In this document: piece by piece, positions 1-62,366 of the stretch
How the letters are laid out: the number at the start of each line of letters is the position of its first letter
Position numbering within the stretch: position 1 is the stretch's first letter
Origin: a virus
Taxonomy: Duplodnaviria; Caudoviricetes
Length of the DNA: 64,000 bases
Virus record (IMG/VR): IMGVR_UViG_3300048060_000061
Coordinates: 1 to 64,000 of that record
Direction: 5' to 3' (one strand)
Translations under genes and position numbers: made by a program
Notes under the pieces: model-generated
What the model was told of the DNA's origin: nothing
Database searches by the model: none
What the model saw: the letters and a program-made list of their open reading frames with translations, nothing else

Positions 1-181
1 GGAATATCCCATCAAACTCTTGTGACGACACTTCATCCACTGTTTCCAACACTGTCTTTGTATTTATCATCCAGCCATCTTGAGTTCTTATAATCATTTT
101 CGTTTCTCCTTTTCGCTAGGTCCTGCTTCTCAAATCTGTATTTATTATACCACGAAGTATATAGTTCTGTCAACCCCCAAT
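1..181. repeat. Near-identical direct repeat of 62187-62366 (5' part of a small minus-strand gene plus its RBS and promoter)
   Basis: Sequences match apart from a 1-nt indel (cctgcttctc vs cctgctctc) and one substitution (gttctgtcaa vs gttttgtcaa). Confidence 0.95.
144..173 (-). promoter_or_regulatory. sigma70-type promoter, conserved motif (copies at 52456-52485 and 62329-62358)
   Basis: Minus strand reads TTGACA-GAACTATATACTTCGTGG-TATAAT (18-nt spacer, TGn extended -10). Confidence 0.8.
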
Positions 182-15854: not shown

Positions 15855-15979
15855 CGGTCCACCCCCACGCCTGTGGGGAAAACTGGTAAAGCTAAGATGT
15901 CAGGTGGTCTAACAACGGTCCACCCCCACGCTTGTGGGGAAAACGAAAGCTGCCATCTGTTCGGTCCACTCCCATACGC
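15855..15979 (-). CRISPR. Mini-array 1 (type I-E-like repeat) downstream of tnpB
   Basis: Two 29-nt repeats GTTTTCCCCACA(A/G)GCGTGGGGGTGGACCG (15855-15883, 15916-15944), a 32-nt spacer, and a half-repeat (15962-15979) with a 17-nt spacer. Confidence 0.9.
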
Positions 15980-16070
15980 TATAATATTAAATTGTGAAGG
16001 TTTCGCTGTCAACCGAGCCAATGCAAGAAGGTTATCGACAGCGCAGTCACCCGCGAACCTACGGGCGATT
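15962..16070 (-). ncRNA. omegaRNA/tracr-like scaffold copy 1, overlapping the tnpB stop codon
   Basis: Homologous to 17804-17924 and 23670-23790 with compensatory stem changes; overlap with the tnpB 3' end is typical of omegaRNA. Confidence 0.8.
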
Positions 16071-17333
16071 ATAATCAGGATTTACGAAAAGTCGTATCCC
16101 CTCGTTTCTCAGGTTAATAGCTGCGTTCAGATCACGTTCATTCTGTTGTCCGCAGCCTTCGCAAGTCCATATCCTGTCACTCAAAGTTAGGTCAAGTTTT
16201 TTTTCTCCACATCCTGAACACAACTTAGATGAGGGGAACCACTGATCTACTATACCAATAGTACCATTATAAAAATCAGCTTTATATTCAAATTGCCGTT
16301 TCATTTCGTAAAAGCCAGCATCAGAAATAGCTTTGGCTAATTTATGGTTTTTTAGCATCCCGCCAACATTTAAGTCTTCGAGAATGATAAGGCCATAATT
16401 CTTTGTGACGTTTGCTGTCAATTGATGTTGAGCGTTGCGCCGTAGATTTTTAATCCTGGTATGTAGATTTTTAATTTTGTGCTCAGTTCGTAGCATCTGG
16501 TTAGACTGATTTTTCGGACGTTTGCCTTTTTTCACTGTGCCATCTTCATTGTAGCATCCTGGATTATTAGACCGGCGTTGTCGGTCTAATTTCCGTTGCA
16601 ATCGCCTTAACTGAGCCTGTGCTTTATAATATGCTTTAGGATTTTCAATAGTTTCGCTATCGCTAGTAACGGCAAGATATTTAATCCCCAAGTCGACTCC
16701 TACGATTTCAGAACTTGGAATAATATCAGGCTTTTCAAACTTAACCTGAATTGAGGCCCAAAACCATTGACCGTCATAAGAGAAGGTAGCGTTCATTATC
16801 TTGCCCTGAAAACGCAATTCTTCGCACATTCTGATATAACCAACTTTGGTATTATAGCGAATATGTTGACCGTCTAATTTCAGACAGATATTAGTAGCCC
16901 GGAAGCTATTATGGTTTCGTTTGCTGCGCCAATTTAACCAGCCTGATTGACGGTAATCCTTGCGAGGTTTGTCATTATGACTATTGATTTTGACCTTACC
17001 CTTACGAATGTCAAAGTATCGTTGCAATCCCTTTTGCAAGTCACCAAAAGCCTCTTGAGTAGCACTGGCAGTTTTATCCTTCACCCAATCTGGTTTAATT
17101 TTATTGTACAGGGCTTTGAGGCTCTTTTGCTCGGTCACTTTATCATTAACAGTAATTGATGTGAATTTGTAATTTTCACCAGTTTCACGATAGGTTATTC
17201 GGTTTAGATCATACTCAAAATCGAGTATCTCTTTGCCGAAATTCCAGGCATTACGGGCGGCTGCAAAGGCCCTCATTAGGTGTTGCTTTTGCTTTTCGGT
17301 TGGTCTAAGTCTAATTTTGTGTGATCTTATCAT
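16059..17333 (-). CDS. tnpB: TnpB-family RNA-guided nuclease, CRISPR-flanked, no transposase partner
   Basis: N-terminal HKIRLRPT...ARNAWN; RuvC I GVDLG, RuvC II LEDL, Zn finger CSGC/CEGC, Ruv[13 protein letters not shown]. Confidence 0.92.
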
Positions 17334-17369: not shown

Positions 17370-17803
17370 CGGTCCACTCCTACGCTTGTAAGAAAAACGG
17401 ACAAACTTGTGTTTTAAGAAAAGGGCGGTCCACCCTCACGCTTGTGGGGAAAACCGTTACGCCTATTGCTACCACAGATGCCACTCCGGTCCACCCCCAC
17501 GCTTGTGGGGAAAACCCAAACACAGCGCAAGCTGCCACAAGTTGATCCGGTCCACCCCCACGCCTGTGGGGAAAACAAACATTATGACGGTCCACCCCCA
17601 CGCTTGTGGGGAAAACTCATCACAACGTTTGCAATCGGTCATATCGCACCGGTCCACCCCCACGCTTGTGGGGAAAACGTTGCCCTGAGATTTGTTGTTT
17701 TGAATAGGCGTACGGTCCACCCCCACGCTTGTGGGGAAAACTCATCACAACGTTTGCAATCGGTCATATCGCACCGGTCCACCCCCACGCTTGTGGGGAA
17801 AAC
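17370..17803 (-). CRISPR. Mini-array 2 (8 repeats, 7 spacers) upstream of tnpB
   Basis: Repeats start at 17370 (degenerate), 17426, 17487, 17548, 17588, 17650, 17713, 17775; spacers 27, 32, 32, 11, 33, 34, 33 nt. Confidence 0.97.
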
Positions 17804-17924
17804 ACTACTAACGTGTAACATTCACCCACACGCTATAATATTAAATTGTGAAGGTTTGACAGACAACCAAGCCAACGCTCTAGGGTTCACGTCTGTCCAG
17901 TCACCGGCGGACCTGCCGGCGATT
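17804..17924 (-). ncRNA. Scaffold copy 2 / array leader
   Basis: Hairpin CGCCGGC-AGGTCC-GCCGGTG, stem GACAGAC..AACC/GGTT..GTCTGTC, anti-repeat ACCTTCAC. Confidence 0.8.
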
Positions 17925-18288: not shown

Positions 18289-19890
18289 CTATTCTATCCT
18301 GTCAGCCTTTACAAAATCGCTTATCACTTGCGGCGTAGATGTATCAAACCCTATAACATCCAGCATACCACTATCTTCAGGGTCAGCAACACTAAATCCA
18401 CTGGGAGTCATCCCCACTACAACAAGCTTGGATGGAATTTCCATTTGATGGCGATATTGTTGCAGCGCTTGTACAGGATGGATATTACCAGCCCAGGTTT
18501 CATTATCCGTATAGACAATAAAAGTATCTATTTCAATTCCGTTTTGTAGCGCATACAACATTGGTAAAGCGCAATCGGTCCGCCCCCACGGAATATCATA
18601 TATCTGTTGGATAACATCATCTAATCGTTGTCGGGCGGATAAAGTGACCGGGATCATTTGATGACTAAAAGCCGTAATTATATGATGTGGTTCCATTCTG
18701 GCTGTAATCATAGCCATTGCTCCAGTAGCTTCGCGAGGTGTAATAGGCATCCCGGCGATAGTATTCCAACTCATTGAAGCCGAAACATCAAGAGCTAGCA
18801 TTGTCCGTTTATTAGTTATTTCGGTATTACCAAATGACAAATAGAAAGCCTCATCTAATGCGTTAATAATTTCAGTAATCGGTGACCAAGATAATCTGCC
18901 TTTCATTCCGTGACCCTGGGCGTAAATTTTTAGAGCTACCAAGATAGCCAAGGGATGAAGTCGCGACTTTTTGATATAGGCTTGATCAGTTAATTTACCG
19001 ATAATAAGGCTTGTTTCGTTCCCCATCGGTTTTAATAATCCCACCCGTGTCATTTTCCCTAAGTTTCGTATTAACGCCGTAAGAGGCATTTTTTGTAGAA
19101 GGGCGCTCCAAATGGCAGGCTCGTTAAGCCATTTGGTCGGGATCATTTCGCGAGTAAGACCTTCATCTAAAATAAGGGAAACTATAGCCAATTTGTTTGT
19201 GGCAACCTTGGCATGCTCAAAGGCGGCAATTAAATCTATATCGCCATATTTTGCTTCTGGGTTACCGACAATCCATTTATATAGGTCATTTCGCATATCT
19301 GCGTCCTTAGAATTATCCGGTATTGGATGGCTGAGGCGTAAAGCATCTCGATGACTCCATCCGTCGCGTTGCTGGTACTTAATTACTTGATAGGCCAGTT
19401 TATCGACAGGCATATAATTGTACCAATTAGCTACAGCCCGGCGTAAGCCTCGTCCCCAACCCCGAAAGCCCTCAACGTATTCAAGGAAATGGAAAAGGTG
19501 AGTACCAATGCGGGCCACTTGCGGAAGTACATCAAAGGCCGCCCGGCGCGTTTCAATATCTCCTATTCCAGCACATATAGCTAACGTAAACAAAGCTGGA
19601 TCGTTCTTGGGCGCTCGACCACCTTTACTGACTTCAACGACTTTAGCAACAACTTGTGGACCGTTATTTTTGATACAGCGTACCACTGCCTGCGCGTTAT
19701 CAATTGTTAATTTTCGTTCATTGGCATAGTAGGTCCCCCCCTCAGATCCCAGGACAAGAAAACGGTCCAGGCGTATCCAGTCATCGACTGCAAAGACATA
19801 CCCCCCGGCCGAATTTTTGACCATTTGTTTATCTGGAATTGCTTGGGTTTGTGGAGTTTGTCTGATTGAAAAATGCTGTCTGTATTTCAT
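18289..19890 (-). CDS. rsr: Ro60 / TROVE-vWA RNA-binding protein
   Basis: NSAGGYVF, RFLVLGSEGGTYY, GWGRGLRRAV, KYQQRDGWSHRD, MPLTALIRNLGKMT, vWA DVSASM, YTDNET, GFD; start placed at ATG 19890 after GGAG RBS. Confidence 0.95.
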   Translation of the reverse strand: MKYRQHFSIRQTPQTQAIPDKQMVKNSAGGYVFAVDDWIRLDRFLVLGSEGGTYYANERKLTIDNAQAVVRCIKNNGPQVVAKVVEVSKGGRAPKNDPALFTLAICAGIGDIETRRAAFDVLPQVARIGTHLFHFLEYVEGFRGWGRGLRRAVANWYNYMPVDKLAYQVIKYQQRDGWSHRDALRLSHPIPDNSKDADMRNDLYKWIVGNPEAKYGDIDLIAAFEHAKVATNKLAIVSLILDEGLTREMIPTKWLNEPAIWSALLQKMPLTALIRNLGKMTRVGLLKPMGNETSLIIGKLTDQAYIKKSRLHPLAILVALKIYAQGHGMKGRLSWSPITEIINALDEAFYLSFGNTEITNKRTMLALDVSASMSWNTIAGMPITPREATGAMAMITARMEPHHIITAFSHQMIPVTLSARQRLDDVIQQIYDIPWGRTDCALPMLYALQNGIEIDTFIVYTDNETWAGNIHPVQALQQYRHQMEIPSKLVVVGMTPSGFSVADPEDSGMLDVIGFDTSTPQVISDFVKADRIE

Positions 19891-19926
19891 AAATATCTCC
19901 TCTGGATAGTAATAAATTTGAACAAC

Positions 19927-19958
19927 AAAAAGAAGCCGGGAAATCCCGGCTTCTTTTT
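19927..19958. terminator. Bidirectional hairpin between Y RNAs and Ro60
   Basis: AAAAAGAAGCCGGG-AAAT-CCCGGCTTCTTTTT. Confidence 0.75.
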
Positions 19959-19964
19959 GTAATA

Positions 19965-20089
19965 TAGGCAAATTATTGAAATTGGGGCTTTTAGTGCTCT
20001 ACCACTGAGCTACCCGCCTTGGTAGGCGGGGCTGGATTTGAACCAACGACCACTCTCTTTCAAGGAGATAACCCAACATCGTCCGGCCC
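19965..20089 (-). ncRNA. yrlA: YrlA-like Y RNA with circularly permuted tRNA-like domain
   Basis: 5' GGGCCGGA and 3' AATTTGCC Ro-binding stem; T arm GTTGG-TTCAAAT-CCAGC, closed acceptor CCCGCC/GGCGGG, D arm GCTC-AGTGGTA-GAGC; adjacent to Ro60. Confidence 0.85.
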
Positions 20090-23646: not shown

Positions 23647-23669
23647 AGGATCAGAAGAAATTAAAAGAA

Positions 23670-23790
23670 AATCGCCCGTAGGTTCGCGGGTGACTGGACA
23701 GACGTGAACCTTCTCGCATTAGCTCGGTTGTCTGTCAAACTTTCACAATTTAATATTTAAGCGTGTGGGTGAATGTTACACGTTAGTAGT
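23670..23790 (+). ncRNA. Scaffold copy 3 (orphan, no adjacent nuclease)
   Basis: CGCCCGT-AGGTTC-GCGGGTG hairpin, GACAGAC/GTCTGTC stem, ACTTTCAC anti-repeat; homologous to copies 1 and 2. Confidence 0.8.
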
Positions 23791-23944
23791 GTTTTCCCCA
23801 CAGGCGTGGGGGTGGACCGCGTTTGTCAAGGACTGCTACCAATTGGGACGTCAGTTTTCCCCACAGGCGTGGGGGTGGACCGACATTGCCGACGTGTACG
23901 GGATTAGTTTTATTGGTTTTCCCCACAGGCGTGGGGGTGGACCG
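23791..23944 (+). CRISPR. Mini-array 3 (3 repeats, 2 spacers)
   Basis: GTTTTCCCCACAGGCGTGGGGGTGGACCG at 23791, 23854, 23916; spacers 34 and 33 nt. Confidence 0.95.
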
Positions 23945-23970
23945 TAATTTTCCAGGATGTTCGTGATTTA

Positions 23971-24886
23971 ATTGTGAAATTATTGGGCGTTGGAGCAAAT
24001 GAAATGCAAAATACCTAAACTTAAAATTATGAGACCTGATTTGTGTAAAAGGATTATTTATGAACGACCACTCCAGAGGAAGTAAATGGGAGAATTAAAA
24101 TGTCGATGAGTACACATGTGATTTTTCTTAGAGATAAAACCGATTTGCAGTATCAAAAGTTCCTCAAGGTACTGTTGGCTTGCAAAGAAGCTGGCATTGA
24201 TCTACCCAAGGAAGTAGATGATTATTTTGGCGGGGACGGACTTGATAATGACCCAGAAGAACCTTTACAAATGTCATTTGAACCTCGCGAGTGGATCAGT
24301 GATATGTCCGAAGGATTTGAAATTGATATTAATGAAATACCACCAGGCGTGAAAACAATACGGTTTTATAATTCATGGTAGATAATGGACAGAGTTACTT
24401 TATAAGGCAAGAATGTAAATGTGAGGAATGTAAAAATAGTTGCGCTTATAAACCTGGTTGGTTTTTGCCGGGAGAAATTGAAAAAGCTGCACAGTATCTA
24501 ATGATGTCTGAGCAAGAATTTTTCGATCAATATTTAGGAGTTGATTGGTATGAAGATTTTAATGACATATTTGTACTTGCTCCAGCTATAACGAGTATGT
24601 ATCCGGGAGAAGAATATCCTGCTAACCCAAAGGGGCAATGCGTTTTTTTTCATAATGGATTATGTAATATTCATTCTGTTAAACCGTATGAATGTATAGA
24701 AAGTTATCATGCGGATACTTATGATATAAGTCAAAAAAGACATTCTTTTGTAGCACAAACATGGATAGATAAACAAGACTATATTTGCACATTATTAGGA
24801 CGCGATCCTGAAAAAGAGGGATATGCTTTTTTTGATGCATTTTTATGGTGATTATTGTGAAATTATTGGGCGTTGGAGCAAATGAA
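23971..24886 (+). repeat. 33-bp direct repeats (23971-24003, 24854-24886) flanking two small genes
   Basis: ATTGTGAAATTATTGGGCGTTGGAGCAAATGAA occurs identically twice. Confidence 0.9.
24375..24851 (+). CDS. YkgJ-like cysteine-cluster (Zn/Fe-S) protein
   Basis: CKCEECKNSC and CVFF..GLCNIHSVKPYEC. Confidence 0.75.
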   Translation: MVDNGQSYFIRQECKCEECKNSCAYKPGWFLPGEIEKAAQYLMMSEQEFFDQYLGVDWYEDFNDIFVLAPAITSMYPGEEYPANPKGQCVFFHNGLCNIHSVKPYECIESYHADTYDISQKRHSFVAQTWIDKQDYICTLLGRDPEKEGYAFFDAFLW

Positions 24887-25973: not shown

Positions 25974-26046
25974 ACTCCCGTAGCTCAGAGGTTAGAGCGG
26001 AGTTCTTATAAAGCTCAGGCCGCTGGTTCAATTCCAGCCGGGAGTA
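25974..26046 (+). tRNA. tRNA-Ile (anticodon TAT)
   Basis: ACTCCCG/CGGGAGT acceptor, GCTC/GAGC D stem, GAGTT-CTTATAA-AGCTC anticodon arm, GCTGG-TTCAATT-CCAGC T arm. Confidence 0.92.
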
Positions 26047-26097
26047 CTGAAGTAAATCGTCCTAATTTTAGGGCAATATCTAAGAGAGGATAGAATT

Positions 26098-34010: not shown

Positions 34011-34961
34011 ATGAAGTTATTAAGAAAGCAAAGTATACTAAATGGCGAATGTATGAATCTGGCGAACGCCAACTTTTGTGGGGCCGATCTGCGTAACGCC
34101 AACCTTCGTGGGGCCGACCTGAGCGATGCCAAACTAAACAACGCCGACCTGACGAATGCCCACCTGAACAGGGCCAACTTGTTCAAGGCCGACCTGAGCG
34201 GGGCCAAACTGCGTGGGGCCAAACTGTACGATGCCAACCTGTGCAGGGCAAACCTGCGCGAGGCTGGCCTGACATATGTCAAGCTCAATAGGGCTAACTT
34301 GTGCCAGGCCGACCTGTACAGGGTTAACCTGTGTGACGCCGATCTAAGTGGGGCCGACCTGAGTGGGGCCGACCTACGTGACGCCGACCTGCGCAGGGCA
34401 AACCTGAGCGATGTCCAACTGATCAGGGCCAAACTGCACTTGGCCAACCTAATGAACGCCAAGCTGAACGGAGCTGATCTGAGTTGGACCGACCTGCGTT
34501 GGGCCGACCTACACGGAGCCGACCTACACAGGGCCGCCCTGCGCGACGCCAATCTGAATGGAGCCGACCTGCGTAGGGCCAAACTGCGTAGGGCCAACCT
34601 GTACAAGGCCAACCTGTACAAGGCCAACCTGTACAAGGCCGACCTGAGTAATGTCGACCTGCGCGAGGCCAACCTAAGTGGGGCCGACCTGTACAAGGTA
34701 AATCTGAGCGGGGCCAATCTGAACGGGGCCGACCTTAGCTTTGCAACCATCGAAAATTGCAAAGGAATAAAGGTTCTATTAAAGGATCCCCGTCGCAAAG
34801 AAGGTTACATCCTGATTAGATGGTATAAAGATGGGCAAGATTGGTATAATAGCGGTTGCCGATCATTCAAGAAATCTGTTGCCCTCGACCATTGGGGTGG
34901 GAGTAATTATGCCTGCCCCCCACGCGGGCAACTGTACGTCGATGCCATTTTAGGGAACTAA
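34011..34961 (+). CDS. Pentapeptide-repeat protein with conserved C-terminal domain
   Basis: Tandem A(D/N)Lxx repeats followed by YILIRWYKDGQDWYNSGCRSF. Confidence 0.92.
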   Translation: MKLLRKQSILNGECMNLANANFCGADLRNANLRGADLSDAKLNNADLTNAHLNRANLFKADLSGAKLRGAKLYDANLCRANLREAGLTYVKLNRANLCQADLYRVNLCDADLSGADLSGADLRDADLRRANLSDVQLIRAKLHLANLMNAKLNGADLSWTDLRWADLHGADLHRAALRDANLNGADLRRAKLRRANLYKANLYKANLYKADLSNVDLREANLSGADLYKVNLSGANLNGADLSFATIENCKGIKVLLKDPRRKEGYILIRWYKDGQDWYNSGCRSFKKSVALDHWGGSNYACPPRGQLYVDAILGN

Positions 34962-34986
34962 AGAAAATACTATAAAGGACTAACCA

Positions 34987-35517
34987 ATGAATACAGAGCA
35001 AAAGCAAAATCTGAGCAGGGCCAACCTAATGAACGCCAATCTGAACGGAGCTGATCTGAGTTGGACCGACCTGCGCTGGGCCGACCTACACGGGGCCGAC
35101 CTACACGGGGCCGACCTGCGCGAGGCCAACCTGAGTGGGGCCGACCTGCGTTGGGCCAAACTGTATAAGGCCAAACTGTACTGGGCTAACCTGCGCGGGG
35201 CCGACCTGCACGGGGCCGACCTGACCGACGCCAGCTTATGGGGAGCCAACCTGACCGACACCGACCTGACCGACACCGACCTGACCGACACCGACTTTAG
35301 CTTTGCAACAATCGAAAATTGCAAAGGGATAGAGGTTTTATTGCATGATCCCCGCGAGGGGAAAGGTTACATTCTTATTAGATGGTATAAAGATGGGCAA
35401 GATTGGTATAATAGCGGTTGCCGATCATTCAAGAAATCTGTTGCCCTCGACCATTGGGGTGGGAGTAATTATGCCTGCCCCCCACGCGGGCAACTGTATG
35501 TCAATGCCATTTGGTAG
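34987..35517 (+). CDS. Pentapeptide-repeat protein
   Basis: MNTEQKQNL start, A(D/N)Lxx repeats, same C-terminal domain. Confidence 0.92.
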   Translation: MNTEQKQNLSRANLMNANLNGADLSWTDLRWADLHGADLHGADLREANLSGADLRWAKLYKAKLYWANLRGADLHGADLTDASLWGANLTDTDLTDTDLTDTDFSFATIENCKGIEVLLHDPREGKGYILIRWYKDGQDWYNSGCRSFKKSVALDHWGGSNYACPPRGQLYVNAIW

Positions 35518-39832: not shown

Positions 39833-40396
39833 TCATAATGATTTCTCCAATCTCTCTATCGCATCGACATACAGTTGCCCGCGTGGGGGGCAGGCATAAT
39901 CACTGCCGCCCCAATGGTCGAGGGCATCAAATTTCTTGAACGATCGGCAACCGCTATTATACCAATCTTGCCCATCTTTATACCATCTAATAAGAATGTA
40001 ACCATCCTCGCGACGGGGATCCTTTAATAGAACCTCTATCCCTTTGCAATTTTCGATTGTTGCAAAATTAAGTTTGGCGTCGCGCAGGTTGGCCCCAATC
40101 AGATTGGCGTCGCTCAGGTTGGCCCAGCGCAGGTTGGCCCCGTTCAGGTTGGCCCCGCTCAGGTCGGCCCCGCTCAGGTCGGCCCCGCGCAGGTCGGCCC
40201 CAATCAGCTTGGCCCCGCGCAGGTCGGCTCCAATTAGCTTGGCCCCGCGCAGGTTGGCCTCGCGCAGGTCGGCCCCGCTCAGATTAGTGTTCGTCAAGTT
40301 AGCCCTGCTCAGGTTAGCGTCACGCAGATCGGCGGCGCGCAGGTCGCCGCCGGTCAGGTTGGCCCTACTCAGATTTTGCTTTTGCTCTGTATTCAT
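39833..40396 (-). CDS. Pentapeptide-repeat protein
   Basis: Same N- and C-terminal constant regions as 34987, different repeat tract. Confidence 0.92.
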   Translation of the reverse strand: MNTEQKQNLSRANLTGGDLRAADLRDANLSRANLTNTNLSGADLREANLRGAKLIGADLRGAKLIGADLRGADLSGADLSGANLNGANLRWANLSDANLIGANLRDAKLNFATIENCKGIEVLLKDPRREDGYILIRWYKDGQDWYNSGCRSFKKFDALDHWGGSDYACPPRGQLYVDAIERLEKSL

Positions 40397-40527
40397 TGGT
40401 TAGTCCTTTCTCGCTAGTTAAATTACTCAGTCTTAAATACAAGTATAACCGATTTTAACTAATTTCAATAATTTAAGGTAGTATTCTAATTTGTTCTATC
40501 TATCTCTTGCCTTAAGCCTTTGAAAAA

Positions 40528-40632
40528 TTGATAAACGTTCCATAATTCGCTATAATGTAAGAAACACATAAGCCCGGCGCAAGCCTCGCGTACATCAGGT
40601 TCGGAAACTCACCTTTACGGTGAGTTTTTTTT
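40528..40632 (+). promoter_or_regulatory. Structural-operon promoter + structured leader + terminator, copy A
   Basis: TTGATA-17-TATAAT; AGCCCGGCGCAAGCCTCGC..CATCAGGTTCGG; AAACTCACC-loop-GGTGAGTTTTTTT. Confidence 0.75.
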
Positions 40633-40642
40633 GTGAGAACCT

Positions 40643-41860
40643 ATGGCGAGATCTGATACTGTCACTTTACTTCCTCTTGATCGCTATGCACAGATTATGC
40701 AAATCCCTCTCCCACATTTTAATCAGATGAATGGTAATAAGGCTCCAAAAGTTGGAGCTAATTGTAATAGTTTGTGGGACCAAAACGCCAGAGATGCGTT
40801 AGCCTGGGTAATGGCACAGGCAGAGGAGATGATTGCAGAATATCTCAATTTCTGGCCTAGCCCAAAATTCATTACCGAAGAAGAAATTCAATTCAGTTTG
40901 CCGGGAATTCGGAGTGATTGGTGGCACGCAGAAGTTCCAACTCGGTGGTCTAAAATAGACTGTTTTGGAACTGAACAGTTAACGCTAAAAATGGCTGATG
41001 CTAATGTCATTTATACCAATTCAAATAATAATCCGAATGATCGAGAAAACTTGGCGACTATCTCAAGTACCGGTCTTTATGTTGACGAACTGGGCGCATG
41101 TGATGACAAGTGCGAGGTGGCCGTATTCTTTCGTGAGGCAGATGGGGCAGAAGACTCGGCAGATTGCCGATGGGAGATAAGACCACTCAAGGTGGATATT
41201 GATGGTTCAACTATGTCAATAACCGGTGATAGCGCAATGTTTGTAAAACCCGAGCTTTGGGAATTGACTGAACTTGAATCAGAAGGTTCTGTGGATAGTG
41301 AAGCATGGGAGATTAACTTCGATACCGCTAATCTTGTTTCACAAGTAGATGTCTATTGTAGAACAGTCAACCAGGCAACACCTGTTACCCTGCTCTGGGA
41401 AGGTATATGCGATTGCCCCGGCGTGTGTGAACATTCAACTCAAACAGCTTGCGCGTATAGGACTGATAAACGACGCGGTTTTTTCGTCCCAAGGTCGGCT
41501 ACCTGGAATGGCACAAGAAATATTTTTGCCAGTCCATTACATCGCCATATTGCACCCGAAAGTCTACAAGCAAATTATCGGGCGGGGATGCCTCTTGATA
41601 AATCTTGCAGGATGAACCAGTCAATGGAGCGGGCCATCGTAAAGCTGACAAATGCCCTGCTTCCTGAGCCGCCGTGTTCGTTTTGTGGTGATGTAGCCGT
41701 GAGAATTTGGCAAGACGACCGCAAGGCAGTCGATCCGTTGACTCCTGAAGCGGCCAGCATGCCGTTTGATATCTACAAACGCGGTGCGCTTGAAGCCTGG
41801 CGAATTATTAAATTGTTCGCTAGAGGTAGGGGCGGTAAAATGGGCAGAGGATATCGTTGA
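40643..41860 (+). CDS. Head-tail adaptor / head completion protein
   Basis: QAEEMIAEYLNF and ANYRAG...MERAIVKL adaptor-like motifs; lies between head and tail genes. Confidence 0.55.
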   Translation: MARSDTVTLLPLDRYAQIMQIPLPHFNQMNGNKAPKVGANCNSLWDQNARDALAWVMAQAEEMIAEYLNFWPSPKFITEEEIQFSLPGIRSDWWHAEVPTRWSKIDCFGTEQLTLKMADANVIYTNSNNNPNDRENLATISSTGLYVDELGACDDKCEVAVFFREADGAEDSADCRWEIRPLKVDIDGSTMSITGDSAMFVKPELWELTELESEGSVDSEAWEINFDTANLVSQVDVYCRTVNQATPVTLLWEGICDCPGVCEHSTQTACAYRTDKRRGFFVPRSATWNGTRNIFASPLHRHIAPESLQANYRAGMPLDKSCRMNQSMERAIVKLTNALLPEPPCSFCGDVAVRIWQDDRKAVDPLTPEAASMPFDIYKRGALEAWRIIKLFARGRGGKMGRGYR

Positions 41861-42034
41861 TACAATCTTCGCGTAAGACTGCGGCCCACCTGACGCTCTG
41901 ATTTCTCGCTGTAATTCGGTCTATTATTGCCTGCGGTAATGGAGCGGTTGCCATAAAAACAAAAACTCACCATTGGTTGATGAGTTTTTGACTAGTACTG
42001 GCAAATATATGGCAACAAATCTTTTTGCAATCAG

Positions 42035-42223
42035 CTAAGTATTCTGATCTAAAGCCATCCTAACCAGCATGCAAATGTATGTCGCCATTGGTATAAGGCC
42101 ACGTTCTTTCTGTAGGCGGTCGTACAATTCGGGCGGCATTGTTACCATGTGCCGCACGAACTTTTTTTCCCCCTTGCTTGCTTTGGTCTTTGGCCCTGTT
42201 TTGGATCGTGTATTGCTTTCCAT
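42035..42223 (-). CDS. Ribbon-helix-helix (CopG/Arc-like) protein
   Basis: RHMVTMPPELYDRLQKERGLIPMATYICMLV. Confidence 0.65.
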   Translation of the reverse strand: MESNTRSKTGPKTKASKGEKKFVRHMVTMPPELYDRLQKERGLIPMATYICMLVRMALDQNT

Positions 42224-42281
42224 AATCAGTTCCTTTCATAGTGCGAAAATTCAAATCATCCCAAAATATATTCCACTTTTG

Positions 42282-42719
42282 TCACGTTTTAGGCACGAAC
42301 CCTTTGCAATTTTCTAACCTGGCCTTGTTTAGGTTAGCCTCGTTCAAGTTGGCTCCGTTCAAGTTGGCTCCGTTTAAGTTGGCTCCGCGCAAGTCAGCCT
42401 CACTCAGGTTAGCGTCGGTCAGGTTGGCGTCGCGCAAGTCAGCCCAGCGCAAGTCAGCGCAGGTCAGGTTAGTATTTGTCAGGTTGGCCCCGATCAGGTC
42501 GGCTCTGATCAGTTTGGCATCGGTCAGATCGGCTCCGATCAACTTGGCTCCGATCAGCTTGGCTCCGATTAGTTTGGCGCTGTTCAAGTCGGCATCGCGT
42601 AAGTCGGCCCTGCACAGGTTGGCCCCGATTAGCTTGGCCCCGCACAGGATAACCCTGTTCAGATCGGCTCCGTATAGGTCAGCTCCGTATAGGTTGGCGT
42701 CGCGCAGATTTTTCTTCAT
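42282..42719 (-). CDS. Pentapeptide-repeat protein, C-terminal domain truncated
   Basis: Repeats ending ARLENCKG. Confidence 0.9.
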   Translation of the reverse strand: MKKNLRDANLYGADLYGADLNRVILCGAKLIGANLCRADLRDADLNSAKLIGAKLIGAKLIGADLTDAKLIRADLIGANLTNTNLTCADLRWADLRDANLTDANLSEADLRGANLNGANLNGANLNEANLNKARLENCKGFVPKT

Positions 42720-42746
42720 AATGTTTAGTCCTTTATAGTATTTTCT

Positions 42747-43325
42747 TTAGTTCCCTAAAATGGCATCAATGTATTGTTGACCCCGTTCTTTATCTGGGTA
42801 GTTCTTGCTACCCCAATGGTCGAGGGCAACAGATTTCTTGAATGATCGGCAACCGCTATTATACCAATCTTGCCCATCTTTATACCATCTAATCAGGATG
42901 TAACCATCCTCGCGGGGATCCTTTAATAGAACCTTTATTCCTTTGCAATTTTCGATTGTTGCAAAGTTAAAAGTAGCGTCGCGCAGATTGGCGTCGCGCA
43001 GTTTGGCTCCGATTATCTTGGCCCAACGCAGGTCGGCCCCACTCAGGTTAGCTCCGATCAGGTTGGCGTCGCGCAGGTAGGCCCCGTATAGGTTGGCCCC
43101 GCGCAGGTCGACATTACTCAGGTCGGCCCCGCGCAGGTTAGCCCCGCTCAGGTTGGCCCCACTCAGGTTGGCCTCGCGCAGGTCGGCCCCGTGTAGGTCA
43201 GCCCTGTGTAGGTCGGCTCCGTGTAGGTCGGCCCAGCGCAGGTCGGTCCAACTCAGATCAGCTCCGTTCAGATTGGCGTTCATTAGGTTGGCCCTGCTCA
43301 GATTTTGCTTTTGCTCTGTATTCAT
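42747..43325 (-). CDS. Pentapeptide-repeat protein
   Basis: First ~105 nt identical to 34987; shared C-terminal domain. Confidence 0.92.
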   Translation of the reverse strand: MNTEQKQNLSRANLMNANLNGADLSWTDLRWADLHGADLHRADLHGADLREANLSGANLSGANLRGADLSNVDLRGANLYGAYLRDANLIGANLSGADLRWAKIIGAKLRDANLRDATFNFATIENCKGIKVLLKDPREDGYILIRWYKDGQDWYNSGCRSFKKSVALDHWGSKNYPDKERGQQYIDAILGN

Positions 43326-51714: not shown

Positions 51715-52455
51715 TATCTGCCCACCATCCGAACTTTTTGACTTGTTTGAGCCATTGTTTCTTGGTCATTACCAAACCATATGTAACCAATTCATACCGA
51801 ATGTCGGCCCTGATCGGCTGTGGTATAGTACCTAAGACAAATTATTTTTTTCATCATTTCAGTTTTCCTTTGGCGTCTTCTCAGGCTTCTATGAATAATG
51901 TATTAATTTCTTTGATTCTATCAAGATAGTTTTTGGTCATAGAAATACCATGCTCATCCTCTCCAAGACCATTTTCAACTAAATCTGAAGCGAACGATTG
52001 AATAGCTACCCGGACGGTCATAGCTTGACCAGTCGTTAATAATGTTCCGTTTACTATGATTTTTGGTTCATCAATTGAAAAAGTAGGCTTATTCATTTTA
52101 TTACCTTTGTTGTTTTCTGGTCAGTATGCCGTCTTATTTTGTTTACACACACCATCCGCAATGCCCAAAACTCAGTTTTACTTCTAGCATCCTGACTATC
52201 TTTTCGTATTCTTCTTCAGATATATTGTATTTTTCTAAAATGAACTGAGTAGATGGCTTGCCTTCGAAAATCATATTACCACACCCGTACATCCCGGGAT
52301 TGTTATCATGTTGATTTCCAAATTCCCTGCTATCGCCTTTCACTTGATTTATGATAAATTTAGATGTGCTACATAATGTATCGGGTACTTCTAATTCTAC
52401 TTTCATTTTCTAAGTCCTTTCATTTTCTAAGTCAGTCAATCCTTAACTCCCCTTT

Positions 52456-52485: not shown

Positions 52486-52548
52486 CCCCCAATCTAATAT
52501 GTGCTGCGCAAGCACTTACGAGTTTCCATTACCGATACCATACAAAAA

Positions 52549-52621
52549 TACCCCCGGCAGGACTCGAACCTGCATCTTCTGGGCCTAAACCAGATGCCTC
52601 TACCAATTGCGCTACGGGGGC
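52549..52621 (-). tRNA. tRNA-Leu (TAG) with short variable loop
   Basis: GCCCCCG/CGGGGGT, TCTGG-TTTAGGC-CCAGA, V loop AGAT, GCAGG-TTCGAGT-CCTGC. Confidence 0.85.
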
Positions 52622-52627
52622 ATAAAG

Positions 52628-52711
52628 CGGAAGGGGCGGGACTCGAACCCGCAGACGTTTTACCGCTTACCTCATTAGCAGTGAGGCTCCTTACCATTCG
52701 GACACCCTTCC
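52628..52711 (-). tRNA. tRNA-Ser (GCT)
   Basis: GGAAGGG/CCCTTCC, CCTCA-CTGCTAA-TGAGG, long V arm, G73. Confidence 0.9.
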
Positions 52712-52718
52712 AAAATAG

Positions 52719-52806
52719 CGGATGGAGTGGGACTTGAACCCACACGGCTTTTACACCCAACTGTTTTCAAGACAGTGGCCCGTAGACCCACTTGGCTTAT
52801 CCATCC
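52719..52806 (-). tRNA. tRNA-Ser (TGA)
   Basis: GGATGGA/TCCATCC, ACTGT-CTTGAAA-ACAGT, long V arm, G73. Confidence 0.9.
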
Positions 52807-52809
52807 AAA

Positions 52810-52894
52810 AGGGGAATGATGGAATTGAACCATCTGCTAACCACCTGTCATATTTAAGCAAGTGTTTTACAGACACCCGACAGGAACATTCCCC
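52810..52894 (-). tRNA. tRNA-Tyr(GTA)-like RNA lacking a canonical D arm
   Basis: GGGGAAT/ATTCCCC acceptor, GGGTGT-CTGTAAA-ACACTT, GATGG-TTCAATT-CCATC; only 9 nt between acceptor and anticodon stems. Confidence 0.7.
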
Positions 52895-52898
52895 ATAA

Positions 52899-52973
52899 TG
52901 GCCCCTCCCGGATTCGAACCGGGACTGTCTGCATTTTAAGTGCAGTGCCTCATACCAATTGCGCTAAGGGGCC
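52899..52973 (-). tRNA. tRNA-Leu (TAA) with short variable loop
   Basis: GGCCCCT/AGGGGCC, CTGCA-CTTAAAA-TGCAG, V loop ACAGT, CCCGG-TTCGAAT-CCGGG. Confidence 0.85.
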
Positions 52974-53106
52974 AAATTATCTTACCTGAAAGTCTACTTA
53001 AATCGTCTCAACTTCAAACCTACCGTTTCTATTTTCATTTACTTCCCTTTTATCACTAGCCATCATTTGCGATTAAAGTGTACGGTATAGGTATACCAGT
53101 TTTCCA

Positions 53107-53152: not shown

Positions 53153-53426
53153 ACTTACTCACAAACGCCCGTGGGGAAACCATGCAACACCGGGCCTGAT
53201 TTCGGTTTAAAATCACTGATCCTCCAAACGCCCGTGGGGAAACCGACCTCCACAACCCACGATAACCGTTGAACCCACTGATCCTCCAAACGCCCGTGGG
53301 GAAACCGAATTGATCCTTATCAAAACAAACATCCCTGATCCTCCAAACGCCCGTGGGGAAACCTGTGAAGTGGGTTCGCGCATGTTCAACCGCGAACCTG
53401 ATCCTCCAAACGCCCGTGGGGAAACC
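53153..53426 (-). CRISPR. Mini-array 4 (5 repeats, 4 spacers) downstream of the C2c9/Cas12n-like gene
   Basis: 29-nt GGTTTCCCCACGGGCGTTTGGAGGATCAG at 53398, 53335, 53278, 53216 and degenerate 53153; spacers 34, 28, 33, 34 nt. Confidence 0.95.
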
Positions 53427-53526
53427 CCTGAAAAGAGCAAATAAAAAGGTAATTCGCTCACTGTTAATATCAGCCGAATAATCTTGGCTGCACGTAACTA
53501 GTGTCTTGGTTGAGCAGTCCCAACCG
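53427..53526 (-). ncRNA. Predicted omega/tracr-like RNA overlapping the 3' end of the nuclease gene
   Basis: Hairpin GGTTGGG-ACTG-CTCAACC, stems CACT.GTTA/TAAC.AGTG and CAGCC/GGCTG, then CCTTT..TGCTC complementary to repeat GGGCG..GGAGG. Confidence 0.55.
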
Positions 53527-54849
53527 TGCAGACTTTTCCTCTAGCCTGCGTTCAAATTGCCCGGTTCGTGCTAATAAAATTACCTTAACATCTTTATAAG
53601 GCGTAAATAACCGTATCTCAGGATCATTCAGCCTGGCCAAGATATTCCGAGCAGCATTTGTATCCGCTTGCAATACCTTCCCGTCGAAACAGTAAAACCT
53701 ATCCCCATTACGATGCCCCAATAGGATACCGTGCCGGGAATCAGTTTGCGAGGTATATGCAGCATTAACTGTTTTAATCGTAGAACCTCTACGATTAGAT
53801 ACCGATTCTATTGCCTCAGCTATAGCACCCTTCGTCCAACCAGCAAGACGGCGGTTTTGATTCTTGCCGTATGACTTGCCATTTATCGGGTTCGTTAAAT
53901 CTTCGGTGACTATAATGTCGGCCTTGTCAACTACTGAATGAGCCGCCTTGAAAATCTTGTCTCTTACATTGGCTGTATGTATACGCTTGCGCTCATCCAG
54001 CTTTTTACGCCCCAAGTTGTTTTTTAGAATATTATCACACTTATGGGGCTTCGCTTCCGCTATTGCCTTTAGCTTGTTTCTACGTTGATACTTGGTTTTA
54101 AGATAGTCTGATTCCTTACTTAACAATTCTCCTAGTCCTTCACCGTGGTGTTTCCCATCTGAATCTACAAAGACCTCAGTATAACCTTTATCAATTCCTA
54201 TAGTCCCATCACCACTGGGTCGAGTAACGCAAACCTTTTCCTCATCAATAGCATAATGTACTTCAATACGTCCATTACGTAGGATCAACCGAAGTGTTCC
54301 CGATGGAGTATTGTTGCTATTCAAAGGGATAGCTATGCGCTTCCCAGATTCCAAGCTCATTACCTTAAGCCAAATCTTACCACCCTTTTCAAAAGTCGTA
54401 TAGCATTGGGAATCCAGTACAATCTGATTATCAACCTTGGTTTTACCGTGCTTAAAATATTTACGCATCATACGACGCAAATAACTATCTTTCAACCAAT
54501 TGTCATATTTAAGCAGAGTATAAAGGCGTTTACGCTCGTCATTATCATCAGTCCTTTGGCGTATTGCCTTTCGCACTTTGACTTTGGCAGCTTCACGGTA
54601 AGTAACTATATCTGCGAAAGTATCTCTTAAGGTTTCATTCCGAAGACGGGCGGCAATATTAAAGTGCCTACCTTCGGCGGTCCATTGATTTCTTATTTGA
54701 CGGTGTGTTAATTCTACACCTTGGACTGAACCAAAGCGTTGCCAGACTTCAGCCCGTAGTTTGCCCAATCGACTAGCCATTTCAGTTAATTGAGCTAACT
54801 TTCCTTCATTAAGATTTTGGCTGTAGATAATCCGAGTAACTTTACTCAT
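53470..54849 (-). CDS. cas12n: C2c9/Cas12n (type V-U4)-like TnpB-lineage RNA-guided nuclease
   Basis: N-terminus KVTRIIYS..LNEGK...EVWQRFGS as I recall for the C2c9 clade; RuvC GIDKGY, TEDL, ADTNAARN; degenerate Zn finger; adjacent array. Confidence 0.7.
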   Translation of the reverse strand: MSKVTRIIYSQNLNEGKLAQLTEMASRLGKLRAEVWQRFGSVQGVELTHRQIRNQWTAEGRHFNIAARLRNETLRDTFADIVTYREAAKVKVRKAIRQRTDDNDERKRLYTLLKYDNWLKDSYLRRMMRKYFKHGKTKVDNQIVLDSQCYTTFEKGGKIWLKVMSLESGKRIAIPLNSNNTPSGTLRLILRNGRIEVHYAIDEEKVCVTRPSGDGTIGIDKGYTEVFVDSDGKHHGEGLGELLSKESDYLKTKYQRRNKLKAIAEAKPHKCDNILKNNLGRKKLDERKRIHTANVRDKIFKAAHSVVDKADIIVTEDLTNPINGKSYGKNQNRRLAGWTKGAIAEAIESVSNRRGSTIKTVNAAYTSQTDSRHGILLGHRNGDRFYCFDGKVLQADTNAARNILARLNDPEIRLFTPYKDVKVILLARTGQFERRLEEKSARLGLLNQDTSYVQPRLFG

Positions 54850-61995: not shown

Positions 61996-62283
61996 TTAAA
62001 TTATCTGATACCAACCGTTACCGGTTCTACTAAGACGGCTATCACTATAGCGAGCTTCTGTATTTAAGATTGCTCTGATTTGATTTAGTCCGATAGTGTT
62101 TTTGTTTATTCGACGAGTATTACTATCAACTTTCTCTTTAACGTCTGCACCATCTTCTATTAACTGTTGTGCGACATGCTTACAATGGAATATCCCATCA
62201 AACTCTTGTGACGACACTTCATCCACTGTTTCCAACACTGTCTTTGTATTTATCATCCAGCCATCTTGAGTTCTTATAATCAT
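61996..62283 (-). CDS. Small hypothetical protein (duplicated 5' end at <1-97)
   Basis: AAGGAG RBS and conserved promoter upstream. Confidence 0.7.
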   Translation of the reverse strand: MIIRTQDGWMINTKTVLETVDEVSSQEFDGIFHCKHVAQQLIEDGADVKEKVDSNTRRINKNTIGLNQIRAILNTEARYSDSRLSRTGNGWYQII

Positions 62284-62366
62284 TTTCGTTTCTCCTTTTC
62301 GCTAGGTCCTGCTCTCAAATCTGTATTTATTATACCACGAAGTATATAGTTTTGTCAACCCCCAAT
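62187..62366. repeat. Second copy of the 1-181 repeat (includes promoter 62329-62358)
   Basis: Direct comparison shows two differences. Confidence 0.95.

What the first reader, a model, noticed from the sequence alone, without database searches (positions are those of the whole stretch)
23670..23944. Orphan scaffold plus array cassette among glycosyltransferase genes
About 6 kb from tnpB and on the opposite strand, scaffold and array occur together without a nuclease. The scaffold is a mosaic: 5' hairpin and inner loop resemble copy 1, while stem 2 and the 3' tail resemble copy 2. It lies in the sense of the long plus-strand unit, so its guides could be expressed at a different time. This suggests trans-acting guide cassettes that spread and recombine.
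Basis: partly seen in the sequence, partly recalled or inferred. Interest (0 to 1): 0.7.

Follow-up and report, generated by a model that had tools for sequence, protein, structure and literature searches.

The report
Satellite guide-RNA cassette of phage TnpB
A 103-kb phage carries, far from its small RNA-guided DNA cutter (TnpB), a spare copy of that cutter's folded guide-RNA scaffold joined to a two-spacer CRISPR array built from its likely host's type I-E repeats. This extends a recently described half-way stage between transposon guides and CRISPR, but whether TnpB, the host's own CRISPR proteins, or both use it is not settled.

Summary
Window 23670-23944 (+) contains a 121-nt structured module followed by three identical 29-nt repeats and two spacers (34 and 33 nt). 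No nuclease gene is adjacent. It lies 6.3 kb from tnpB (16059-17333, -), on the opposite strand, in a sugar-modification gene cluster.

New here:
- The repeat is a true type I-E repeat. It matches 29/29 the array beside a complete I-E cas operon in one Chloroflexi MAG. The phage has no cas genes.
- The 72-nt core of the module is an RNA-like structure: 100% of cells paired and 7 pairs with compensatory changes. It also overlaps the tnpB stop codon here and in two metagenome relatives, and hairpin 1 is read in three frames at the 3' ends of at least 14 of 23 homologs. That is the behaviour of a TnpB omegaRNA.
- The genome holds six copies of the module.
- Nine related phages keep the flanking gene order but lack the cassette, so it is an insertion.
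- The "mosaic" pattern is real but is explained by retained ancestral states. Recombination is not needed.
- No anti-repeat and no protospacers were found.

Best reading (about 0.5): a satellite guide locus for TnpB, close to TranC. Main rival: a host-Cascade mini-array. Other agents of this scan reported the parent system on this same genome. I found it in no other genome of the scan.

The parts
23670..23741 (+). Scaffold core, copy 3. It has hairpin 1 (8 bp; loop AGGTTC at 23680-23685) and the composite stem 2 (8+3+2 bp).
   Evidence: CM R1 scores it at 95.8 bits. RNAalifold and pair counts on the 7 copies show 100% of 147 cells paired and 7 pairs changed on both sides. Only 0-1 of 500 shuffles reach these values, and slid controls pair at most 46%.
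23742..23790 (+). Scaffold tail of the 'array-head' type. It contains an A/T-rich stretch, a half-repeat-like segment, stem 3 (23760-23784) and the junction AGTAGT.
   Evidence: Alignment A2. Stem 3 is predicted with one compensatory pair. The consensus scan lists it as a weak terminator-like site. A sigma-70-like match (TTGTCT, 17-nt spacer, TAATAT) scores only 8/12 and was not listed by the scan.
23791..23819 (+). Repeat 1: a 29-nt type I-E repeat. The hairpin is CCCCAC/GTGGGG and the 8-nt spacer-side tail is GTGGACCG.
   Evidence: It is identical 29/29 to the repeats of Chloroflexi MAG WTGF01000004.1, which sit next to cas3-cse1-cse2-cas7-cas5-cas6e-cas1-cas2.
23820..23853 (+). Spacer 1 (34 nt). 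In this cassette it is the first sequence that follows a complete hairpin-plus-tail unit, which is the cis guide position.
   Evidence: No protospacer was found.
23854..23882 (+). Repeat 2
23883..23915 (+). Spacer 2 (33 nt)
   Evidence: No protospacer was found.
23916..23944 (+). Repeat 3. It is followed by unique sequence, with no terminator before the next ORF.
23647..24885 (+). Lineage-specific insertion between the GT2 gene and the o24886 gene. It holds cassette C plus two small ORFs (24100-24381 and 24375-24851).
   Evidence: In nine related IMG/VR phage loci the GT2 homolog is followed by the o24886 homolog after 32-686 nt. None of them has a scaffold or an I-E-like repeat.
16059..17333 (-). 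tnpB1, the presumed effector. It is 424 aa and the RuvC residues D214, E319 and D401 are invariant in 23 homologs.
   Evidence: Pfam and alignment A1. The closest solved structure is ISDra2 TnpB at E 5e-39, against 2e-23 for LaTranC.
15945..16070 (-). Scaffold copy 1. It overlaps the tnpB1 stop codon (TAG inside the hairpin-1 loop), ends in GTGGACCG, and is followed by 17 nt of unique sequence and then array A (repeats at 15916-15944 and 15855-15883).
17370..17924 (-). Scaffold copy 2 (17804-17924) plus array B (8 repeats, 17370-17803), directly 5' of tnpB1.

Best explanation
Cassette C is a satellite guide-RNA locus of the phage's TnpB1 system. It is a detached copy of the TnpB1 omegaRNA scaffold (hairpin 1 plus stem 2) fused to a short array of host-type I-E repeats. 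It was inserted as a module into a sugar-modification gene cluster and is probably transcribed by read-through with the plus-strand genes.

Shown here:
- The scaffold is a conserved, base-paired element.
- In its 'home' position it overlaps the 3' end of tnpB.
- The single-guide copies end in GTGGACCG and then unique sequence.
- Every I-E repeat ends in the same 8 nt, directly before its spacer.

Inferred:
- TnpB1 binds the scaffold.
- Repeat 1 supplies the terminal hairpin and tail, so spacer 1 sits in the cis guide position.
- Later spacers are released at the I-E hairpins, most simply by host Cas6e. That cut would leave a 5' GUGGACCG-spacer RNA.
- These RNAs then dock on a scaffold-loaded TnpB1, possibly through the 5-nt complementarity between the hairpin-1 loop (GGTTC or GGTCC) and the tail (GGACC).
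- Because the repeats are identical to the host's, the same RNAs would almost certainly also load host Cascade. Dual use is therefore likely.
For: 1. Structure. The scaffold core pairs in 100% of 147 cells, and 7 of 21 pairs changed on both sides. Only 0-1 of 500 shuffles reach these values. Compensatory changes also occur among the array-head copies themselves (c2/E against c3 against L154_up). Selection on the structure therefore persists away from tnpB.

2. omegaRNA position. The core starts 10 nt before the tnpB1 stop codon in the window. It sits at the same place in L154 (71% identical TnpB) and L155 (72%). The C-terminal tails of at least 14 of 23 homologs are translations of hairpin 1 in three different frames, so conservation is at the nucleotide level. 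The only hit among 80 distant viral tnpB loci (18 bits; E 0.11 in that search, 0.0013 when the locus was searched alone) lies 6 nt after the TnpB match of a 35%-identical TnpB.

3. Tail. Copies 1, F and L154b end in GTGGACCG followed by unique sequence. This is the same 8 nt that precedes every spacer.

4. Conserved linkage. The order scaffold-array-tnpB-scaffold recurs in L154, and tnpB-scaffold-repeat recurs in L155.

5. Effector. TnpB1 keeps its catalytic RuvC residues.

6. Second system. A second TnpB-like gene, with no BLASTP similarity to TnpB1, carries its own array. Its repeat keeps only the 5' half of the I-E repeat, and by my manual inspection of the sequence its hairpin does not pair (no fold was run). 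Host Cascade is therefore unlikely to serve that array.

7. Precedent. TranC shows that TnpBs can work with a split omegaRNA and CRISPR arrays, including in phages (bioRxiv 10.64898/2026.03.27.714800; PMC13565253).
Against: - No anti-repeat. The scaffold-repeat duplex energy (-26.1 kcal/mol) is reached by 20% of shuffled repeats. The scaffold end is homologous to the repeat, not complementary to it.
- The loop-tail pairing is only 5 nt. Its apparent covariation (GGTCC or GGTTC with GGACC; GGTTC with GAACC) rests on three states and is not significant. The GAACC tail also occurs in a natural bacterial I-E repeat, so it can be explained by tracking of the host.
- In cassette C the scaffold's own tail has lost GGACCG.
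- Spacers are 33-34 nt, the I-E length. This is far longer than the roughly 16-nt guide of ISDra2-type TnpB.
- The repeat is 29/29 identical to a host I-E repeat. That is what a plain Cascade-hijacking mini-array looks like (PMC11656645).
- No protospacer was found, so neither a TAM/PAM nor the length of the matched part is known.
- There are no expression data.
Confidence: 0.5

Rival explanations
1. The cassette is a plain virus-borne type I-E mini-array. It is transcribed in the infected cell, cut by host Cas6e and loaded into host Cascade/Cas3, which then attack competing phages or other elements. The structured module is only a leader, promoter or mobilisation relic that travels with the arrays, and TnpB1 plays no part.
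For: - The repeat is 29/29 identical to that of a Chloroflexi MAG with a complete I-E operon. It was the only exact match among 65 hits in 185,579 species genomes.
- Repeat length, hairpin, 33-34-nt spacers and the degenerate leader-distal repeats in array B are all typical of I-E.
- The phage encodes no cas genes.
- Two-spacer arrays with host-identical repeats are the known pattern (PMC11656645, PMC6858448).
- No anti-repeat was found.
Against: - It does not explain why a 72-nt element keeps its base pairs through compensatory changes at the head of every array.
- It does not explain why the same element overlaps the tnpB 3' end across the TnpB1 subfamily.
- It does not explain why array-less copies (F, L154b) exist with the tail followed by unique sequence.
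- The host's own leader is unrelated to the module.
- None of the phage spacers matches the nine related phages I hold. None matches GenBank phages or, for the patterns tried, IMG/VR.
Confidence: 0.27
2. The cassette is a decoy or competitor RNA, like Racr or crlRNA. It floods host Cas6e and Cascade with phage-made crRNAs and so dilutes the host spacers directed against the phage.
For: - The repeats are host-identical and lie in a phage without cas genes.
- Four such arrays lie in different transcription units.
- Phage repeat mimics that inhibit CRISPR are documented (PMC10651486; bioRxiv 10.1101/2024.10.29.618823).
Against: - Racrs are solitary repeats or aberrant units. Here the spacers are of canonical length and diverse.
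- It gives no role to the conserved scaffold.
- No host spacer against this phage was found among the 426 tested.
Confidence: 0.08
3. The cassette is an inert remnant: a duplicated piece of the tnpB locus carried into a variable region by illegitimate recombination. It is no longer used.
For: - It sits in a lineage-specific insertion with two small ORFs of unknown function.
- It has only two spacers.
- Its cis tail is altered.
- No targets were found.
Against: - All three repeats are identical to each other and to the host consensus.
- All 21 core base pairs are intact.
- The array-head tail type is conserved in five independent copies, including L154 and L155.
Confidence: 0.1

Closest known systems
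TranC, transposon-CRISPR intermediates (Jin et al., Cell 2025). Known to me through bioRxiv 10.64898/2026.03.27.714800, PMC13565253 and PMC13639567.
   Same: A TnpB-sized nuclease of IS605 descent is linked to CRISPR arrays. There are no adaptation genes. The omegaRNA is reorganised so that a constant scaffold serves several spacers. Some examples are phage-borne.
   Different: - The repeats here are 29 nt and identical to a host class 1 (type I-E) repeat. The preprint reports 32-38-nt repeats of 'unknown subtype' for TranC.
- No tracrRNA anti-repeat is detectable.
- The scaffold is physically joined to the head of each array.
- Scaffold-plus-array cassettes are dispersed away from the nuclease gene.
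- By sequence, the protein is nearer to ISDra2 TnpB than to LaTranC.
Virus-borne CRISPR mini-arrays that exploit host Cas proteins (PMC6858448; review PMC11656645)
   Same: One or two spacers, repeats identical to the host's, and no cas genes in the virus.
   Different: - A conserved omegaRNA-type structured module replaces a host-like leader.
- The arrays are linked to tnpB.
- No spacer matches a related virus among those I could search.
Canonical TnpB-omegaRNA (OMEGA) of the ISDra2 type
   Same: The scaffold overlaps the 3' end of tnpB, is structured, and is followed directly by the guide in copies 1, F and L154b. A pseudoknot near the guide is a conserved feature of the ISDra2 omegaRNA (PMC13639567), and the loop-tail complementarity here would fit it.
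   Different: - There is no tnpA in the genome.
- The scaffold exists in six copies, four of them feeding multi-spacer arrays.
- The last hairpin and tail of the RNA are a type I-E repeat.
RNA anti-CRISPRs (Racr, PMC10651486) and phage crlRNAs (bioRxiv 10.1101/2024.10.29.618823)
   Same: The phage encodes mimics of host CRISPR repeats.
   Different: Here the units are full repeat-spacer-repeat units with canonical spacer length, plus a scaffold.

Membership tests
Type I-E CRISPR array | 29-nt repeat of the I-E family with the Cas6e hairpin and the 8-nt 5'-handle tail | tested here: met
   It is identical 29/29 to the repeats flanking a complete I-E cas operon in WTGF01000004.1. The 25-nt core is shared with 65 array-bearing stretches.
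Type I-E CRISPR array | Spacers of about 32-33 nt at regular spacing | tested here: met
   Spacers are 34 and 33 nt, giving periods of 63 and 62 nt. The host array has periods of 60-62 nt.
Type I-E CRISPR array | cas genes (cas6e, Cascade, cas3, cas1-cas2) in the same genome | tested here: not met
   tblastn of the eight host I-E Cas proteins against the whole 103-kb genome gave no hit better than E 0.4.
Type I-E CRISPR array | A leader of the host type next to the first repeat | tested here: not met
   The host leader (L046 7238-7305) is unrelated to the module. The phage arrays are headed by the structured scaffold instead.
TnpB omegaRNA (OMEGA) | RNA gene overlapping or abutting the 3' end of tnpB | tested here: met
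   This is met for the family: copy 1, L154b and L155, and hairpin 1 translated at the C-termini of at least 14 of 23 homologs. Copy 3 itself is detached, 6.3 kb away.
TnpB omegaRNA (OMEGA) | Conserved secondary structure supported by covariation | tested here: met
   100% of cells paired, 7 pairs changed on both sides, controls far lower.
TnpB omegaRNA (OMEGA) | A guide of about 16 nt directly 3' of the scaffold end | tested here: inconclusive
   This is clear in copies 1, F and L154b. In copy 3 the cis tail is altered, and the first proper tail-plus-spacer unit comes after repeat 1.
TnpB omegaRNA (OMEGA) | Bound by TnpB and guides DNA cleavage | not testable with these tools
   This needs RIP-seq and cleavage assays.
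TranC (transposon-CRISPR intermediate) | TnpB-like nuclease associated with a CRISPR array | tested here: met
   Arrays A and B flank tnpB1, and the same arrangement occurs in L154 and L155. Cassette C is a remote member.
TranC (transposon-CRISPR intermediate) | tracrRNA whose anti-repeat pairs with the repeat | tested here: not met
   The RNAduplex energy of scaffold against repeat is no better than 20% of shuffles. Only a 5-nt loop-tail complementarity exists.
TranC (transposon-CRISPR intermediate) | Placement of the protein in a described TranC clade | not tested
   I have only PDB phmmer results: ISDra2 TnpB E 5e-39, LaTranC E 2e-23. No tree was built against the published clades.
Virus-borne mini-array exploiting host Cas | Repeats identical to the host's and no cas genes in the virus | tested here: met
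Virus-borne mini-array exploiting host Cas | Spacers that target related viruses | tested here: inconclusive
   No match was found in the phage itself, nine related loci, 80 other viral loci, GenBank phages, IMG/VR exact patterns or the candidate host genome. The metagenome collections could not be searched for the spacers.
Racr (RNA anti-CRISPR) | Solitary repeat unit, or a unit without a functional spacer | tested here: not met
   The cassette has three repeats with two spacers of canonical length.

The most novel reading that the evidence does not exclude
One array arms two effectors of different CRISPR classes. Host Cas6e cuts the phage's I-E-type repeats, and the resulting 5'-GUGGACCG-spacer RNAs are used both by host Cascade and, in trans, by phage TnpB1 loaded with a free scaffold. 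The RNAs would dock by a short loop-tail pseudoknot instead of a tracrRNA anti-repeat. Dispersed scaffold-array cassettes such as this one would then let the phage express different guide sets from different transcription units.
Probability: 0.25. Interest if true: 0.85.

Novelty: new variant of a known kind. Interest (0 to 1): 0.6.

Why it matters
If TnpB1 does use these cassettes, three things follow. A transposon-type nuclease can be supplied with guides from loci scattered around a genome. A guide RNA can be split without an anti-repeat. A class 1 (type I-E) repeat can be grafted onto a class 2 ancestor's guide RNA, probably so that the host's own processing enzyme does the cutting. That would be a concrete, testable step in how type V CRISPR systems obtained their arrays. 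It would also show how a phage reuses host immunity parts. If only host Cascade uses the array, the cassette is an ordinary phage mini-array, and the interest shifts to why an omegaRNA scaffold is kept at its head.

Tried and rejected
- Chance or artefact. Rejected, given the repeat statistics and the CM scores.
- ORFs across the array (23765-23947 on the plus strand, 23783-23998 on the minus strand). These are by-products of the repeats.
- Known RNA family. Rfam gave nothing at gathering scores or at permissive E-values on the cassette and on copy 1.
- The module as a copy of the host CRISPR leader. Rejected, because the host leader is unrelated.
- The module as an IS200/IS605 end mobilised by TnpA. 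No Y1 transposase is present in the genome, and there is no matching hairpin at the far end of the cassette. Not excluded for the past.
- A strong internal promoter. Copy 1 has a 10/12 sigma-70 match, but copy 3 has only 8/12, the -35 lies in a covarying stem arm, and the spacing is wrong in copy F. This stays unproven.
- Anti-repeat. None found.
- Recent recombination as the cause of the mosaic. Not needed.
- Protospacers. None found in any collection I could reach.
- Host spacers against the phage. None of the 426 tested matches.
- tnpB1 or the scaffold in bacteria. No close TnpB1 homolog was found in the candidate host or in 401 genomes of its class at E 1e-90.
- The scaffold elsewhere in IMG/VR. 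Three pattern scans found nothing real.
The DNA around the 20-odd close TnpB1 homologs from other metagenomes could therefore not be fetched.

Full report
**What is there.** The window is the first 64 kb of a 103,196-bp IMG/VR virus record with 42% GC. At 23670-23944 on the plus strand there is a 121-nt module. It is followed by three identical 29-nt repeats (23791, 23854, 23916) separated by spacers of 34 and 33 nt. The same repeat occurs 12 times in the window at up to 3 mismatches, against 0 expected. It occurs five more times outside the window. This gives four arrays:
- A: 15855-15944, minus strand
- B: 17370-17803, minus strand
- C: this finding
- E: genome 88394-88672, plus strand

Each array is preceded by the same module. 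The only nearby nuclease gene is tnpB1 (16059-17333, minus strand). It has HTH_OrfB, OrfB_IS605 and Cas12f1-like TNB domains. Its RuvC triad is invariant in 23 close homologs. It lies 6.3 kb away on the other strand.

**The repeat is a type I-E repeat of a likely host.** A scan of one genome per prokaryotic species with the 25-nt repeat core found 65 array-bearing stretches, mostly in Chloroflexota. Only one contig, from a Chloroflexi MAG (WTGF01000004.1), has the repeat identical over all 29 nt. There the array directly follows cas3, cse1, cse2, cas7e, cas5e, cas6e, cas1 and cas2. The phage itself has no relatives of these proteins. In isolation, then, cassette C looks like the well-known phage mini-arrays: one or two spacers, host-identical repeats and no cas genes (PMC11656645 and PMC6858448).

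**The module is a structured RNA of the omegaRNA type, not a CRISPR leader.** I aligned seven copies: four from the genome, two from metagenome contig L154 and one from L155. They fold into hairpin 1 (8 bp) and a composite stem 2 (8+3+2 bp). All 147 pair cells are standard pairs, and 7 pairs show changes on both sides. Only 0-1 of 500 column shuffles reach the observed values, and structures slid by 1-3 columns pair in at most 46% of cells. The compensatory changes also separate the array-head copies from one another, so the structure is still under selection away from tnpB.

A covariance model of the 72-nt core finds six copies in the genome. One of them, F at genome 89148-89219, has no array.

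The home position of the element is the 3' end of tnpB:
- In the window the tnpB1 stop codon lies in the loop of hairpin 1.
- The same junction is seen in L154 and L155, whose TnpBs are 71-72% identical.
- Among 23 homologs of 59-82% identity, at least 14 end in peptides that are translations of hairpin 1 in three different frames. The conservation is therefore in the nucleic acid, not the protein.
- The only hit among 80 distant viral tnpB loci is weak (18 bits). It starts 6 nt after the TnpB match of a 35%-identical TnpB, and its hairpin has different stem letters.

The host array's own leader is unrelated, and Rfam has no family for the element.

**How the scaffold and the repeat fit together.** In copies 1, F and L154b the scaffold ends in GTGGACCG and is followed by unique sequence. 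This is the classical scaffold-guide layout. These are the same 8 nt that end every I-E repeat and precede every spacer. The piece of scaffold before the tail is homologous to the repeat hairpin, with an enlarged A/T-rich loop. It is not complementary to it. Accordingly I found no anti-repeat: 20% of shuffled repeats reach the best scaffold-repeat duplex energy.

In the array-head copies, including copy 3, the cis tail is replaced by a short extra hairpin (stem 3). The first complete hairpin-plus-tail unit is then repeat 1, which puts spacer 1 in the cis guide position.

The only candidate contact for a trans-acting scaffold is 5 nt between the hairpin-1 loop (GGTTC or GGTCC) and the tail (GGACC, or GAACC in L154). 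All observed combinations can pair, but three states are too few to call covariation. The GAACC tail also exists in a bacterial I-E repeat of the same class. A pseudoknot next to the guide is a conserved feature of the ISDra2 omegaRNA (PMC13639567), and ISDra2 TnpB is the closest solved relative of TnpB1. The idea is therefore reasonable but unproven.

**Context of cassette C.** Nine related phage loci from IMG/VR keep the gene order o20274, o21014, GT2, o24886, o27108. The GT2 proteins are 28-65% identical. In these loci the GT2 homolog is followed by the o24886 homolog after 32-686 nt. None has the scaffold or an I-E-like repeat. In the window a 1.24-kb insertion lies between these genes. 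It holds cassette C, a 93-aa ORF and a CxxCxxCC-domain ORF. The neighbours are a GT2 glycosyltransferase, an RmlD/epimerase-like protein and a weak second GT2. There is no terminator between the GT2 stop codon and the scaffold, or after the array, so read-through transcription with the plus-strand genes is the simplest expectation. An internal sigma-70-like site is weak in this copy (8/12).

**The mosaic.** However, the copy-1-like states of hairpin 1 and the inner loop are shared by all three outgroup copies on L154 and L155. They are ancestral. Copies 2 and E have derived changes, and copy 3 is the less derived member of the array-head lineage. No recombination is required, although it is not excluded.

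**Who uses the guides.** For use by TnpB1:
- the maintained scaffold at each array head
- the shared tail
- the conserved linkage in relatives
- an intact catalytic site
- a second TnpB-like gene (53470-54849), with no BLASTP similarity to TnpB1, whose array repeats keep only the 5' half of the I-E repeat; by inspection of the sequence their hairpin does not pair (no fold was run), so they are unlikely to serve Cascade
- the precedent of TranC

For use by host Cascade alone:
- the perfect I-E repeat
- the I-E spacer length
- the missing anti-repeat
- the known biology of phage mini-arrays

The two uses do not exclude each other. RNA with these repeats would be cut by a matching Cas6e in the host cell, and that cut would produce exactly a tail-plus-spacer 5' end.

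No protospacers were found in any collection I could reach, and no host spacer among the 426 tested matches the phage. Neither the PAM/TAM nor the matched length can therefore settle the question. I put TnpB1 use, with or without parallel Cascade use, at about 0.5. Cascade-only use is about 0.27, a decoy role about 0.08 and an inert relic about 0.1.

**Comparison with what is known, and novelty.** The system works most like TranC. It fails the one TranC feature I could test, the anti-repeat. It also differs in three ways: it uses a host class 1 repeat, the scaffold is fused to each array, and cassettes are dispersed. By sequence the cassette alone meets the definition of a virus-borne mini-array. 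I class the finding as a new variant of a known kind.

Other agents of this scan have already described the parent system, array E and the second TnpB on this same genome. My results agree with theirs on the structure. I am more cautious on who uses the guides. A look-up by sequence found the scaffold in no other genome of the scan.

**Limits.**
- The exact 127-bp terminal repeat has a third identical copy at 62187. The record may therefore be a figure-8 assembly path. tnpB1 and cassette C lie on the same side of that copy, so the finding is not affected.

Noticed in passing
window 18289-19971 (-): A Ro60/TROVE plus vWA protein (Pfam E 1e-49 and 4e-68) is encoded directly upstream of the scaffold2-arrayB-tnpB1-scaffold1-arrayA unit, on the same strand. 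The Rfam gathering scan reported no Y RNA. A role in handling these structured RNAs is conceivable.
   Followed up: no
L156 3149-3261 (genome 89148-89260, +): This is the sixth scaffold copy (F). It has no array. It ends in GTGGACCG, then a sequence that looks like a tRNA T-arm plus the acceptor 3' strand, then a GC-rich terminator about 60 nt on. That sequence matches none of the phage's five tRNAs and nothing in the candidate host genome at up to 3 mismatches.
   Followed up: partly
window 53216-53426 (-) and 53470-54849 (-): A second TnpB-like ORF (459 aa; only the Cas12f1-like TNB domain is detected; no BLASTP similarity to TnpB1) is followed at once by a 4-repeat array. Its 29-nt repeat shares the 5' half of the I-E repeat but has a different 3' half and, by inspection, no good hairpin.
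   Followed up: partly
window 1-127, 62187-62313 and genome 103070-103196: The 127-bp 'direct terminal repeat' has a third identical copy inside the record. Two of the copies, plus a site at 52440, are followed by a conserved 54-nt promoter-like stretch. The length equals a common assembler k-mer, so the 103-kb record could be a figure-8 path through two circles rather than one genome.
   Followed up: partly
window 17370-17803 (-): Array B contains one spacer twice (17742-17774 and 17617-17649, part of a 92-nt duplication), one 11-nt 'spacer' (17577-17587) and two degenerate leader-distal repeats. These are signs of unit duplication and deletion rather than fresh acquisition.
   Followed up: no
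window 25974-26047 (+) and 52548-52974 (-): Five phage tRNA genes are present: Ile-TAT lies 2 kb downstream of cassette C, and a cluster of Leu-TAG, Ser-GCT, Ser-TGA and Leu-TAA lies next to the second TnpB locus.
   Followed up: no
window 34068-35334 and 39969-43301: Long runs with 15-nt periodicity (collagen-like or other short peptide repeats) occur in large ORFs, probably tail-fibre-type proteins.
   Followed up: no
L154 2173-2280 (+): In the relative L154 the scaffold at the tnpB 3' end lacks the A/T-rich loop and the 3' arm of the terminal hairpin. It goes straight to GGTGGACCG plus unique sequence. This suggests the terminal hairpin is dispensable for a single-guide RNA, or that this copy has decayed.
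   Followed up: no
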